Assembly (NCBI GenBank): GCA_965209225.1
Contig: OZ242379.1
Location: 1,741,289 to 1,805,288, forward strand
Reading direction: 5' to 3'
DNA length: 64,000 nucleotides
Origin: Thermodesulfobacteriota bacterium
GTDB lineage: Bacteria > Desulfobacterota_D > UBA1144 > Nemesobacterales > Nemesobacteraceae
In this document: positions 61,708 to 64,000 of the stretch, in pieces
Layout: every line of letters starts with the position of its first letter
How positions within the stretch are numbered: position 1 is the stretch's first letter
The notes under the pieces: generated by a model
Databases searched by the model: none
The model's input: only the letters and a program-made list of their open reading frames with translations
What the model was told of the DNA's origin: nothing
Program-made: the position numbers and the translations under genes

Positions 61708-63318
61708 TTAAATATCCGTTCTCGGTGCCATCAATCCCAAACCTAGATAGCGCCCGTTCCCAACAACTAAAGTGCCTAATAAAGGTTTTTCAAAAACAAT
61801 TTCTACATGGTATAAAACACGCTCGGAAAATCTCTCGGACATAGCAAATTTCTCTGCACGAACACCATTACGGTCGAATGGTTCGCGTTGTGTGCGTATG
61901 GAATCTGCACTTGCCGCTATTCCCGTATGGCGCAATGCCTGCATAACAGACTGCGCCAAATTCCTTTCATATTCCAAGCGCATAGTTCCGGTAATTCGGC
62001 GTCCTTTACCTTTACTTATCATTGGAAGAGCAGCCGGTGTGATCGTGTACCAGGTTTGAAAGCTGTTTTGGCCATTATGATCTACTCCGTAGTGATTGAG
62101 CATTCCTAGTTCTTGGGTATAGACAAGATTCCATACGATTTCTCCAGTTGTCGGATTAATCCTTCCAATTCCAGAAAATGCCCATTCTATATCATCGGCT
62201 CTAAGTGGGCAGTTAGGAGGCACCTCAACTAGCACACGACGAATTGCACGGTCCGCATATTTATGCCCAATAGAGGGAATGGGAATAATTCTTACTCTCG
62301 AAGATTTGTCGGTTTCCTTTGCCCCGCGACCTATAAGTACACGATCAATATTGTCGGTATTTCCATGCAAAGCCTTCCGCAATCTGTCAACCGCTTTGTT
62401 TCTCAGGTCCACAACTAGTTTTGCCGATTGTGTACACGGCACTGCCACAAAAGATTCTTCATTCGAGGCTGCTCGTATTTCAAATAAAAAACGTTGCGGA
62501 GGAGAGTCATAAACTGTCTTGGCAAAACGGGGCTTCTGAGGCAGAGAGAGATATACCTTGTTTCTCTTTTTCTCTCTGATCGAAGAGAAACGATTTCGAT
62601 TCGCTTCAAACCGTGCTTCAAGACTTGCAAACGACCCTTTCTGCGGGCTAAGGATTTCTTTTCCAATGCCATTTTCACTAGGGTGATGTGCTACAAGAGA
62701 TTGACCAGCGGCGATAAAATCTGCAATATCGCTTTCGTTAAGAATGTCCGCATAGGCCCATGCCATGTCGACACCTCGCCCTAACTGATACAACCGTTCT
62801 GCTATCTTGCAGACAACTCGTGCGTTGTGTTCAGCACTTTTACTGCTGTTGAACATCCAAGCAAAAAGCAACGGGATACTCGAATCAAAAATATGTGGTC
62901 GGATATTTTTGTCAGTTCTGATCTCAGCAATTCGTTTCGGATCATTCCCAACTGCGTCAAGATCGTTGTTTGGCACATAGTTCTTGAAGGATTGACCCGT
63001 TAGAGCTTGAGGGGCCATAATCACCGGAGCTTCAAGCGCTTCCAGCCATTGAAGTGCCATCTTATCTTCGCCAGTCAGACTTCCTCCTTTTGCCGCACCC
63101 GAAACGAGTGCTTGGAACAAGCGTGCGGGGGCAGGAGGCCAACTACCAGCACCGTAATACCATCCGTCATGAAAGTAGACTGAGAGCAGAAGTGTGCGAT
63201 TCATGGTTGATTTGTCTAGATCACTTCTTAGCTTTGACATCTTTTTTAGCAAGCTCTTTGTCGAAACTGACAGTTCTGTCCATTTCGACACCAAAATTTC
63301 TAAAGGCTTCCGAAGCAT
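61708..63318 (-). CDS. large Cas5-group RAMP, Csb2-like (type I-G/I-U Cas5-Cas6 fusion family); start uncertain
   Basis: Cas5-type N-terminal motif …[36 protein letters not shown]…. C-terminal Gly-rich loop …[16 protein letters not shown]…. 536 aa from the longest start. Alternative starts 63240 and 63204. Confidence 0.45.
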
Positions 63319-64000
63319 AGCTCATAGCTAAGTCCTCAGTCAGTTCAATTTCCTGGTGCGTACCATCACGTTTTACCAGTTTCCATTTTTGCACAGCTTC
63401 CGAATCAGGGATTAGAAAACATCCTTGGCGTAGGAAAAAGTCCAAGGGAGCCGTAGCCACAGCAAGAGAAAGACCTAGAATATATTGACGCAAGGCTTGA
63501 GAGTTGTTCTCATCCCCTTCAAGTCGGCGCAAGGCTACTAAGTTTATAGTGATATCGCGCTCAATATTTCCACGGACGACTACACCACCATGTGAACCAG
63601 TGGCGGGAACGTGAACAAAACCACGTTTAGCAAGATCACTTCCCTCTCGCCCTTCTGCTTTTTGTTTTTCTTCCTCTGAAAAAACTTCAAGCGCGGCGTA
63701 ATCAAGTGCCGGATTGTATTGCGCTGAACGTGTCAGGACATCTATATCCCAAGCGCGAATTACTGACTGCACAATTCTCGGGAATTTAGCTTGAGTATCT
63801 CGAGAATCCCATACACCAAAGACTAGTGAAGTTGGCGCAAGTTTTGCCAGGGCTGAAACATTTCCCGAGTCAAGGAAGGATTCAAACGCTTTTTTTACCT
63901 CGTCAGCTAGTTCAGAGGACCGAATGAGTGCATCTCCGAGGCGGTGACTGACCTCGAAAATTGAGATGCTTTTCTCAGCATCTTGATCATATTCAATTTG
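63221..64000 (-). CDS. Cas7-group protein, Csb1-like (type I-G/I-U), 5' end beyond window
   Basis: Frame is open to the window edge (…[30 protein letters not shown]…). Co-directional with, and overlapping, the Csb2-like gene. Assignment from memory of family motifs only. Confidence 0.35.

What the first reader, a model, noticed from the sequence alone, without database searches (positions are those of the whole stretch)
61708..64000. Csb1/Csb2-like (type I-G) Cas7 and Cas5-6 genes sit directly upstream of, and overlap, the Cas10 gene
The 536-aa protein has a Cas5-type N-terminal motif ([14 protein letters not shown]) and a C-terminal Gly-rich loop ([13 protein letters not shown]). The upstream partial ORF contains VFGVWDS. 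I associate both with the I-G (I-U) Csb2 and Csb1 families. In canonical I-G loci, Csb2 is followed by cas4-cas1 and cas2; here it is followed by cas10. This suggests either replacement of the adaptation module by a type III signalling module, or a shared-crRNA dual effector.
Basis: inference. Interest (0 to 1): 0.65.

Follow-up and report, generated by a model that had tools for sequence, protein, structure and literature searches.

The report
Type I-G CRISPR genes feeding a minimal type III module
The end of this window holds the last two genes of a type I-G CRISPR DNA-targeting complex, followed 22 bases later by a stripped-down type III RNA-sensing module that has no RNA-processing enzyme, spacer-acquisition genes or CRISPR array of its own; the same nested arrangement recurs in many uncultured bacterial phyla, so the two systems probably share guide RNAs.

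Summary
On the minus strand, a partial csb1/cas7g (64000..63221) and a full-length csb2/cas5-6g (63204..61708) sit directly 5' of cas10 (61685..60207). There is a 22-nt gap and no overlap. Downstream lie csm2, csm3, csm4 and a CARF-HEPN gene. This is a III-A-like module without an HD domain, Csm5, Cas6, adaptation genes or an array. A relative with 93% DNA identity (L006) shows what should lie past base 64000: cas3g and cas8g2, then a divergent operon with a second csb2 paralog, cas4/cas1 and cas2. So the adaptation module is relocated, not replaced. In the wider family, 22 of 28 informative loci carrying this short Cas10 sit inside I-G loci. The usual order is csb2, then the cas10 module, then cas4/cas1, then a large array of 36-nt I-G repeats ending in ATTGAAGC. 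The reverse does not hold: none of 80 loci with related Csb2 genes carries type III genes. The best reading is a dependent type III signalling add-on that uses I-G-processed crRNAs. crRNA sharing is inferred from genomics, not shown. Hybrid type I/III loci and borrowed Cas6 are known, but I found no description of this nested I-G form. Moderate interest.

The parts
63221..64000 (-). csb1 / cas7g. This is the C-terminal 259 codons; the gene runs off the window end.
   Evidence: TIGR02570 E 9e-20 and PF09617 E 6e-20. The protein is 93% identical to the 348-aa Csb1 of L006. Stop codon TGA at 63223-63221.
61708..63204 (-). csb2 / cas5-6g, 498 aa. The longest possible ORF starts at 63318 and gives 536 aa.
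   Evidence: TIGR02165 E 4e-82 over its full length. PADLOC Cas56g E 8e-83. The AF2 model has pLDDT 78.6, and its best PDB matches are Cas6 chains followed by Csm4/Cas5. dN/dS against L006 is 0.16.
61686..61707 (-). 22-nt csb2-cas10 intergenic spacer. It is also close to the homology breakpoint with relative L007, which lies at window 61671.
   Evidence: Sequence read directly. Promoter-like and terminator-like sites in 50400-64000 are no more frequent than in shuffled sequence. blastn against L007.
60207..61685 (-). cas10 / csm1, 492 aa, with no HD domain. It has Palm1 (DFSGIQ), four zinc-finger cysteines, a GGDD Palm2 motif and a C-terminal domain.
   Evidence: TIGR02578 E 2e-80, above cutoff. 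PF22335 palm2 and PF18211. The best PDB sequence matches are all III-A Csm1 chains of 756-816 aa. Invariant residues G306, D308, D309 and C150/153/172/175.
59707..60207 (-). csm2 / cas11, 166 aa. Its ATG shares one base with the cas10 stop codon.
   Evidence: TIGR01870 E 5e-10 and PF03750. The gene called in L006 is 166 aa.
59028..59705 (-). csm3 / cas7, 225 aa, with the catalytic Asp motif GGSD34NPV.
   Evidence: TIGR02582 E 1e-45. The motif aligns with GGtDNPV of a solved Csm3, 4qts.
58105..59049 (-). csm4 / cas5, 314 aa.
   Evidence: TIGR01903 E 4e-20, 72.5 bits against a cutoff of 55.
56855..58126 (-). CARF-HEPN RNase of the Csx1/Csm6 class (TIGR02710 family), with the HEPN motif RNGSLLAH.
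   Evidence: TIGR02710 E 3.5e-54. PF09670 Csm6 HEPN domain. PADLOC CARF_HEPN/Csx1 E 2e-69. Motif read from the translation.

Best explanation
The window ends inside a composite CRISPR-Cas locus.

The two genes in the finding are the last genes of a type I-G interference operon of the Cas8g2 variant. They are csb1, the Cas7 backbone subunit, and csb2, a Cas5-Cas6 fusion. After a 22-nt gap the same strand continues into a minimal type III-A-like module:
- Cas10 without an HD nuclease domain but with an intact GGDD cyclase motif
- Csm2
- a single Cas7, Csm3, with its catalytic Asp
- Csm4
- a CARF-HEPN RNase

This module has no Cas6, no Csm5, no cas1/cas2 and no CRISPR array. Going by a relative with 93% DNA identity, the region just past base 64000 should hold cas8g2 and cas3g. 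Beyond those, on the other strand, should lie a second Csb2 paralog, cas4/cas1, cas2 and an array of 36-nt I-G repeats.

Proposed mechanism:
1. Cas4/Cas1-Cas2 load spacers into one I-G-type array.
2. A Csb2-family Cas6 domain cuts each repeat and leaves the 8-nt 5' handle AUUGAAGC. Which of the two Csb2 paralogs does this is not known.
3. The crRNAs are loaded both into I-G Cascade and into the Csm-like complex. I-G Cascade recruits Cas3g to destroy PAM-flanked DNA.
4. When the Csm-like complex pairs with a target transcript, Csm3 cuts the RNA and Cas10 makes cyclic oligoadenylate.
5. The cyclic oligoadenylate switches on the CARF-HEPN RNase. This gives a second, PAM-independent layer of defence.

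What is shown: the gene identities, the gene order, the conserved catalytic motifs, purifying selection, and the recurrence of the nested architecture.

What is inferred: crRNA sharing, the processing step, and the biological role.
For: Gene identities:
- All the cas genes of the locus (csb1, csb2, cas10, csm2, csm3, csm4 and the CARF-HEPN gene) pass the curated NCBIfam cutoffs. Pfam and PADLOC agree.
- The genes from csb1 to the CARF-HEPN gene are packed tightly, with gaps of 22 nt or less or short overlaps.
- The window contains no CRISPR array and no other cas gene.

Closest relative:
- L006 is collinear with the window and 93% identical in DNA from 64000 to 55151.
- Its gene order is cas2, cas4/cas1 and a csb2 paralog on one strand, then cas3g, cas8g2, csb1, csb2, cas10, csm2, csm3, csm4 and CARF-HEPN on the other.
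- dN/dS between the window and L006 is 0.09-0.28 for every gene. Both modules are therefore maintained by selection.

Family-wide pattern:
- A scan of one genome per species with a short-Cas10 alignment gave 36 loci in at least 9 phylum- or class-level groups.
- In 22 of 28 informative loci the module lies within an I-G locus.
- The usual order is csb2-family gene, then cas10-csm2-csm3-csm4-CARF protein, then cas4/cas1, then an array of up to 82 repeats.
- One example is the complete Latescibacteria chromosome L032. It carries cas3, csx17 (TIGR04113, E 5e-191), csb1, csb2, the module, cas4/cas1 and a CRISPR array.
- All arrays are 36-nt I-G repeats ending in CATTGAAGC, with spacers of 36-38 nt.
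- The same repeat type starts 225 nt after cas2 in L124, whose Cas4/Cas1 is 94% identical to that of L006.
- No locus has a csm5 or cas6 gene in the module.

Age of the junction:
- L001, whose Csb2 is 66% identical, keeps a Cas10 N-terminal pseudogene stub right after csb2.

Published precedent:
- T. sulfidiphilus Csb2 cleaves I-G repeats and leaves an 8-nt handle (PMC9638904).
- The H. ochraceum type III-B complex was reconstituted in E. coli with csb2 as the processing enzyme (bioRxiv 10.1101/2023.06.23.546230).
- A type III-B system uses type I-F crRNAs as a backup against escape mutants (PMC5576922).
Against: - There is no RNA or protein data. crRNA sharing rests only on gene content and gene neighbourhood.
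- Six of the 28 short-Cas10 loci have no I-G genes within 10 kb (L016, L024, L026, L029, L031, L039). Adjacency is therefore not obligatory.
- Cas10, Csm3 and Csm4 co-vary tightly with each other (Spearman 0.85-0.90). They co-vary only moderately with Cas4/Cas1 (0.44-0.55). This points to module shuffling rather than strict co-inheritance.
- In L007 (Cas10 88% identical) the I-G interference cassette is a different variant on the opposite strand. The csb2-cas10 junction itself is therefore not required.
- The catalytic histidine of Csb2 (H503 in the studied enzyme) could not be mapped onto the window protein.
- How a Csm complex without Csm5 handles the crRNA 3' end is unknown.
- The region past base 64000 was inferred from a relative, not read.
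Confidence: 0.7

Rival explanations
1. Two independent CRISPR-Cas systems are simply neighbours in a defence island. The type III module gets its crRNAs from some other array and Cas6 elsewhere in the genome, and has no functional tie to the I-G genes.
For: - The flank is a defence island: a PDC-M38-like ATPase/DUF3226 pair and a DpdE/ZorD-like SNF2 helicase follow the module.
- Six of 28 short-Cas10 loci lack I-G neighbours.
- None of 80 related Csb2 loci has type III genes.
- The interference cassette is swapped between close relatives.
Against: - 22 of 28 informative loci from many phyla place the module inside I-G loci. This holds across three I-G gene-order variants, usually between csb2 and cas4/cas1.
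- No cas6, array or adaptation genes belong to the module in any locus.
- The only arrays nearby have I-G repeats.
- The window has no other array or cas gene in 64 kb.
Confidence: 0.15
2. The type III signalling module has replaced the I-G adaptation module. The locus would then no longer acquire spacers.
For: Within the window, cas10 occupies the position after csb2 where cas4/cas1 is normally found.
Against: - The collinear relative L006 (93% DNA identity) carries cas4/cas1 (580 aa) and cas2 upstream on the opposite strand.
- In most family members cas4/cas1 and a large array follow the module.
Confidence: 0.03
3. A physically chimeric effector. One form would have Cas10 acting as the large subunit on a Csb1/Csb2 backbone, like type I-D. 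Another would have Csb2 staying on the crRNA 3' hairpin as a fixed subunit of the Csm5-less Csm complex.
For: - The module always lacks Csm5 and Cas6.
- A Csb2-family gene is the commonest 5' neighbour of cas10.
- Csb2 stays bound to the cleaved 3' hairpin in vitro (PMC9638904).
- csb2 and cas10 are 22 nt apart on one strand.
Against: - The module has its own Cas7 (Csm3), Cas5 (Csm4) and Cas11 (Csm2).
- The I-G set in L006 has its own Cas8g2 and Cas3g. Two complete effector sets therefore exist.
- In L007, and in loci where adjac_Cas3_IG precedes cas10, csb2 is not the neighbour.
Confidence: 0.1

Closest known systems
Type I-G (formerly I-U) CRISPR-Cas, Cas8g2 / GSU0051-0054 variant. The biochemically studied example is the Thioalkalivibrio sulfidiphilus I-G system (PMC9638904).
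   Same: - Csb1/Cas7g and the Csb2 Cas5-Cas6 fusion are present in the window.
- Cas3g, Cas8g2, the Cas4/Cas1 fusion and Cas2 are present in the collinear relative.
- Related loci carry 36-nt repeats ending in ATTGAAGC.
   Different: - Csb2 is followed by cas10 rather than cas4/cas1.
- The adaptation genes lie upstream on the other strand, together with a second full-length Csb2 paralog.
- This clade's Csb2 is about 498 aa. It lacks the extra C-terminal Cas6-like domain found in most Cas8g2-variant Csb2 proteins, which are about 730 aa.
Type III-A (Csm) systems, for example those of Staphylococcus epidermidis, Streptococcus thermophilus and Thermococcus onnurineus
   Same: - The gene order cas10-csm2-csm3-csm4 is the same.
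- All four genes pass the III-A models.
- The GGDD cyclase motif and the Csm3 catalytic Asp are present.
- A CARF-HEPN effector follows the module.
   Different: - Cas10 is 492 aa with no HD domain; solved Csm1 chains are 756-816 aa.
- There is no Csm5 and no Cas6.
- There are no cas1/cas2 genes or array of its own.
- The module is nested in a type I locus.
Type III systems that use crRNAs made for a co-resident type I system: Marinomonas mediterranea III-B with I-F (PMC5576922), and Haliangium ochraceum III-B reconstituted with csb2 (bioRxiv 10.1101/2023.06.23.546230)
   Same: - The type III effector lacks its own Cas6.
- It relies on type I processing and arrays.
- The Haliangium work shows that a Csb2 enzyme can supply crRNA to a type III complex.
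   Different: - Those are Cmr (III-B) systems in separate loci.
- Here a Csm-like module sits physically inside the I-G locus, a pattern repeated across phyla.
- Sharing is not demonstrated here.
[quoted passage not shown]
   Same: - These are type III-derived modules that have lost components.
- In III-G and III-H there is no adaptation module, and crRNAs are presumed to be borrowed in trans.
   Different: [quoted passage not shown] This module is the opposite: cyclase and CARF-HEPN kept, HD lost.
- Type I-D merges Cas10d into a single Cascade. Here two full effector sets coexist.

Membership tests
Type I-G CRISPR-Cas | Csb1 / Cas7g signature protein | tested here: met
   TIGR02570 at 71 bits against a cutoff of 38, and PF09617. 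The gene is partial because it is cut by the window end.
Type I-G CRISPR-Cas | Csb2, a Cas5-Cas6 fusion | tested here: met
   TIGR02165 at 277 bits against a cutoff of 45, over its full length. Foldseek on an AF2 model with pLDDT 78.6 gives Cas6 chains as the best PDB matches (E 2e-4), followed by Csm4/Cas5.
Type I-G CRISPR-Cas | Cas8g large subunit, Cas3g, and the Cas4/Cas1 fusion with Cas2 | not testable with these tools
   These genes lie beyond base 64000. In the collinear relative L006 all are present: TIGR04106 E 1e-55, TIGR02621 E 1e-182, and Cas4+Cas1 Pfam domains.
Type I-G CRISPR-Cas | Csb2 catalytic histidine for pre-crRNA cleavage (H503 in the T. sulfidiphilus enzyme) | tested here: inconclusive
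   The window Csb2 has near-invariant H426 and H466. The Csx17-variant Csb2 family has its conserved histidines at other aligned positions (HFHRFRSR and CHFGLG).
Type I-G CRISPR-Cas | Adjacent array of 36-nt repeats with an 8-nt ATTGAAGC handle | tested here: not met
   There is no array in the 64-kb window, and the pattern CATTGAAGC is absent. Such arrays are present in related loci and in L124. The expected position is past the window end.
Type III-A (Csm) | Cas10/Csm1 with a GGDD cyclase Palm domain | tested here: met
   TIGR02578 at 272 bits against a cutoff of 170. PF22335. GGDD is invariant in the family alignment.
Type III-A (Csm) | N-terminal HD nuclease domain in Cas10 | tested here: not met
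   The protein is 492 aa and starts directly with the Palm1 motif DFSGIQ. There is no HD family hit. The published survey finds HD domains in 65% of III-A loci, so their absence is common (PMC11229360).
Type III-A (Csm) | Csm2, Csm3 with catalytic Asp, and Csm4 | tested here: met
   TIGR01870, TIGR02582 and TIGR01903 are all above cutoff. D34 lies in GGSDNPV and aligns with a solved Csm3.
Type III-A (Csm) | Csm5 (3'-end Cas7-like subunit) and Cas6 | tested here: not met
   No such gene lies between csm4 and the CARF-HEPN gene or elsewhere in the window. None was found in any of the related modules.
Type III-A (Csm) | CARF-domain ancillary effector (Csm6/Csx1 class) | tested here: met
   TIGR02710 at 184 bits against a cutoff of 84, plus the PF09670 HEPN domain. 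The motif RNGSLLAH is present. Activation by cyclic oligoadenylate is not testable here.

The most novel reading that the evidence does not exclude
The short-Cas10 module (no HD domain, no Csm5, no Cas6) is an obligate add-on that has co-evolved with type I-G. In this reading a Csb2-family protein is more than the shared processing nuclease. It stays on the crRNA 3' hairpin and acts as the missing 3' cap (the Csm5 role) of the Csm complex. One protein would then be a physical subunit of both a type I and a type III effector, and the pair would form a single two-armed system fed by one array.
Probability: 0.15. Interest if true: 0.75.

Novelty: new variant of a known kind. Interest (0 to 1): 0.45.

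Why it matters
Type III systems are known to borrow Cas6 and arrays from type I neighbours. The best-studied cases involve separate loci and partners other than I-G.

Here a minimal signalling-only Csm module has no HD domain, Csm5 or Cas6. It is repeatedly built into I-G loci, between the processing gene and the adaptation genes. This is seen in Latescibacterota, Dehalococcoidia, Binatia, Acidobacteriota, Spirochaetia and other groups.

The arrangement offers three things:
- a compact natural test case for how one crRNA pool is split between a DNA-targeting and an RNA-sensing effector
- a way to ask what replaces Csm5
- possibly a small four-protein type III scaffold for engineering

For annotation, such loci should be called I-G/III-A composites, not incomplete I-G or incomplete III-A.

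Tried and rejected
Steps that led nowhere:
- Exact-sequence look-ups of the window's Csb2 (536-aa form) and Cas10 found no contig. The window's own continuation could therefore not be read, and the 93%-identical L006 was used as a proxy.
- The first AlphaFold model of Csb2, from 15 sequences, was unusable (pLDDT 40.7). A 121-sequence alignment gave pLDDT 78.6.
- Sequence searches of the PDB with Csb2 and Csb1 found nothing.
- The catalytic His503 of the studied Csb2 could not be mapped.
- The 2015 and 2020 CRISPR classification papers are not held in the library.
- No viral contig carries the short Cas10. The only plasmid hit was a distant one in Arcobacter, at 27% identity.

Ideas considered and rejected:
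- Divergent Csm5 or Cas6 instead of Csb1/Csb2. Rejected because the I-G models match over their full length and above cutoff.
- Replacement of the adaptation module. Rejected because cas4/cas1-cas2 is present in L006.
- A decaying type III module. Rejected because all ORFs are intact, the catalytic motifs are kept and dN/dS is 0.09-0.28.
- The second Csb2 paralog ('csb2L') as a type III-specific Cas6. Rejected because it is the ordinary Csb2 of the Csx17-variant I-G system, and it also occurs in loci without a type III module (L001, L003).
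Full report
**What is in the sequence.** All relevant genes lie on the minus strand. The region from 64000 down to 55108 is a tightly packed gene string:

| Gene | Coordinates | Note |
|---|---|---|
| csb1 | 64000..63221 | partial ORF |
| csb2 | 63204..61708 | longest ORF starts at 63318 |
| cas10 | 61685..60207 | |
| csm2 | 60207..59707 | |
| csm3 | 59705..59028 | |
| csm4 | 59049..58105 | |
| CARF-HEPN gene | 58126..56855 | |
| AAA ATPase | 56862..55765 | |
| DUF3226 gene | 55761..55108 | |

After a 246-nt gap comes a SWIM/SNF2 helicase (54858..51520).

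Curated NCBIfam models identify the first seven genes, each above its own cutoff:
- Csb1/Cas7g (TIGR02570, E 9e-20)
- Csb2 (TIGR02165, E 4e-82, profile positions 1-491 of 492)
- Cas10/Csm1 (TIGR02578, E 2e-80)
- Csm2
- Csm3 (E 1e-45)
- Csm4
- a TIGR02710 CARF protein (E 3.5e-54)

Pfam and PADLOC agree.

One detail is wrong. csb2 and cas10 do not overlap; 22 nt separate them. The only overlap, about 98 nt, is between the longest csb2 ORF and csb1. It disappears if csb2 starts at the ATG at 63204, 16 nt after the csb1 stop. That start fits the profile match and the gene call in a close relative. Promoter-like and terminator-like sites in the region are no more frequent than in shuffled sequence.

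**The type III module is reduced but looks functional.**
- Cas10 is 492 aa and starts directly with the Palm1 motif DFSGIQ. It has four zinc-finger cysteines and the GGDD motif, all invariant in the family alignment.
- It has no HD domain. Its best solved relatives are all III-A Csm1 chains of 756-816 aa.
- Csm3 keeps the catalytic Asp in GGSD34NPV, aligned to a solved Csm3.
- The CARF-HEPN protein has the motif RNGSLLAH.
- There is no csm5, no cas6, no cas1/cas2 and no CRISPR array anywhere in the 64-kb window.

**What lies beyond the window.** Exact look-ups of the window proteins failed, but homolog searches found close relatives.
- L006 comes from a Spirochaetia metagenome-assembled genome, GCA_964429945.1. 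It is collinear with the window and 93% identical in DNA from 64000 to 55151.
- Its locus has cas2, cas4/cas1 (580 aa) and a 547-aa gene on one strand. On the other strand it has cas3g (887 aa), a 282-aa gene, csb1, csb2, cas10, csm2, csm3, csm4, CARF-HEPN, the ATPase, DUF3226 and SNF2.
- The 282-aa protein is Cas8g2 (TIGR04106, E 1e-55). The 547-aa protein is a second, full-length Csb2 paralog (TIGR02165, E 3.5e-31).

The adaptation module is therefore present and has not been replaced. A contig whose Cas4/Cas1 is 94% identical to that of L006 has cas2, a 225-nt leader and then the start of an I-G-type repeat. Between the window and L006, dN/dS is 0.09-0.28 for every gene from csb1 to the helicase. 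Both modules are under purifying selection.

**Is the Cas10 linkage general?** I tested it in both directions.

From the Cas10 side:
- An alignment of the short Cas10 family was scanned against one genome per species. It gave 36 loci. They come from Latescibacterota, Rhodothermales, Opitutales, Bryobacterales, Binatia, Dehalococcoidia, Acidobacteriota, Spirochaetia and Gemmatimonadota.
- I mapped the genes with profiles built from the annotated seed proteins.
- In 22 of 28 informative loci the module sits inside a type I-G locus.
- The commonest layout is I-G interference genes, a Csb2-family gene, cas10-csm2-csm3-csm4, a CARF protein, cas4/cas1 and a large array. Arrays reach 82 repeats.
- In the complete Latescibacteria chromosome L032 the upstream genes are cas3, Csx17/Cas8g1 (TIGR04113, E 5e-191), Csb1 and Csb2. 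This is a canonical I-G locus with the type III module inserted exactly between csb2 and cas4/cas1.
- The effector slot varies. It holds TIGR02710, TIGR02619 or TIGR02221 CARF proteins.
- No module has csm5 or cas6.
- All arrays are 36-nt I-G repeats ending in CATTGAAGC, with spacers of 36-38 nt. This matches the published I-G repeat and its 8-nt handle (PMC9638904, PMC11237760).
- Six loci have no I-G genes within 10 kb.

From the Csb2 side:
- A Csb2 alignment scanned against metagenome contigs gave 80 loci. None has any type III gene.
- In 29 of the 51 loci with enough downstream sequence, cas4/cas1 directly follows csb2.

The dependence is one-sided. The short-Cas10 module mostly lives in I-G loci, whereas I-G loci mostly lack it.

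**History of the junction in this lineage.**
- L001 has a Csb2 66% identical to the window's and the same I-G layout. It keeps a Cas10 N-terminal stub with an in-frame stop immediately after csb2. The junction therefore predates that split, and the module was later lost.
- Truncated cas10 fragments follow Csb2-family genes in several other loci (L034, L041, L042).
- L007 has a Cas10 88% identical to the window's. Its DNA homology with the window starts at 61671, essentially at the cas10 start.
- Upstream of that point L007 carries a different I-G interference cassette on the opposite strand: csb1, csb2, cas3 and adjac_Cas3_IG. It keeps the Csb2 paralog and a Cas4/Cas1 96% identical to that of L006.
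- Interference cassettes are therefore exchanged next to a stable core made of the type III module and the adaptation genes.
- Pairwise identities of Cas10, Csm3 and Csm4 co-vary tightly (Spearman 0.85-0.90). They co-vary only moderately with Cas4/Cas1 (0.44-0.55). These pairs of loci are not independent, so the figures are descriptive only.

**Csb2 itself.**
- An AlphaFold model from 121 sequences has pLDDT 78.6. Its best matches among solved structures are Cas6 chains (7tr6_P, 4mjk and 3ufc; E 2e-4 to 2e-3), followed by Csm4/Cas5 chains. This fits the published Cas5-Cas6 fusion architecture.
- Most relatives in the Cas8g2 variant are about 730 aa. Their extra C-terminal part matches the Cas6-like half of the Csx17-variant Csb2.
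- The window's clade (498-509 aa) lacks that extra domain and instead carries the separate full-length paralog.
- The published catalytic His503 could not be mapped onto the window protein. I cannot say which paralog cuts the repeats.

**Mechanism.** The best-supported reading is a dependent type III add-on.
1. One I-G array is filled by Cas4/Cas1-Cas2.
2. A Csb2-family Cas6 domain cuts the repeats and leaves the AUUGAAGC handle.
3. The crRNAs go both to I-G Cascade with Cas3g, for PAM-dependent DNA destruction, and to the complex of Cas10 (without HD), Csm2, Csm3 and Csm4.
4. On pairing with a transcript, that complex makes cyclic oligoadenylate and activates the CARF-HEPN RNase.

Published work shows three relevant things:
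- Csb2 processes I-G repeats (PMC9638904).
- A type III-B complex works in E. coli with csb2 as its processing enzyme (bioRxiv 10.1101/2023.06.23.546230).
- A type III system can use type I crRNAs as a backup against escape mutants (PMC5576922).

For this locus, steps 2 to 4 are inferred.

**Comparison with what is known, and novelty.**
- Hybrid type I/III loci are recognised by typing tools. Most type III systems are thought to use a Cas6 supplied in trans (PMC11229360, PMC12669027).
- Cas10 proteins without an HD domain are common; only 39% of the type III loci surveyed have one (PMC11229360).
- In the library I could search, I found no description of a Csm5-less, Cas6-less III-A-like module systematically nested in I-G loci.
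- The 2015 and 2020 classification papers were not available, so prior mention cannot be excluded.

I rate it a new variant of a known kind, of moderate interest.

Noticed in passing
window 55108-56862 (-): An AAA_15/AAA_21 ATPase (365 aa) and a DUF3226 protein (217 aa) match the candidate defence pair PDC-M38A/B, with AbiLi as the second-best match (E 1e-82 and 1e-36). The ATPase start overlaps the CARF-HEPN stop by 8 nt, so the pair looks co-transcribed with the type III module. The pair occurs only in the closest relatives, L006 and L007. In L006 the ATPase is split into two ORFs.
   Followed up: partly
window 51520-54858 (-): A 1112-aa protein with an N-terminal SWIM zinc finger and an SNF2 helicase domain. 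It is most similar to DpdE and ZorD defence helicases (PADLOC E 1e-179) but has none of their partner genes nearby.
   Followed up: partly
window 44698-51381: About 6.7 kb is absent from L006 and L007, where the SNF2 gene is followed directly by the thioesterase and MFS genes. The extra segment carries an animal-type haem peroxidase (46794-48572), an RTX-repeat protein (44882-46501) and a Cache-domain protein (49113-50420).
   Followed up: partly
L007 1-9548, compared with window 61671-64000: Between two relatives about 90% identical in DNA, the whole I-G interference cassette differs. One has cas3g-cas8g2-csb1-csb2. The other has csb1-csb2-cas3-adjac_Cas3_IG on the opposite strand. The homology breakpoint lies at the cas10 start. 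This looks like a cassette swap.
   Followed up: partly
L001 11539-11925: A Cas10 N-terminal pseudogene stub (MN*STYLACDFLGTQPYVLGMKGIGKAQAKRLR...) lies right after csb2 in a relative that otherwise lacks the type III module. This indicates that the module was lost.
   Followed up: yes
P0005-P0120 and loci L045-L123: Most Csb2 proteins of the Cas8g2-variant I-G system are about 730 aa. [quoted passage not shown] The window's clade lacks this domain and instead has a separate full-length Csb2 paralog next to cas4/cas1. The role of two Cas6-like domains is unknown.
   Followed up: partly
L017 6445-20681: In a Binatia genome the type III module sits between csb2 and cas3 rather than between csb2 and cas4/cas1. 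The insertion point within I-G loci therefore varies.
   Followed up: no
window 10332-10682 (+): A tmRNA gene (Rfam RF00023, 177 bits; tag peptide AEPINALAA). Together with CTP synthase, RNase II/R, PtsP and CcmF genes, it shows that the window is chromosomal.
   Followed up: yes
window 30231-32165 and 41467-42750 (+): A 644-aa protein has a weak STAND NTPase match, below the Pfam cutoff, in the lowest-GC stretch of the window (0.39). A KAP-family P-loop NTPase (E 1.5e-40) also lies here. These may be further defence-type genes.
   Followed up: no
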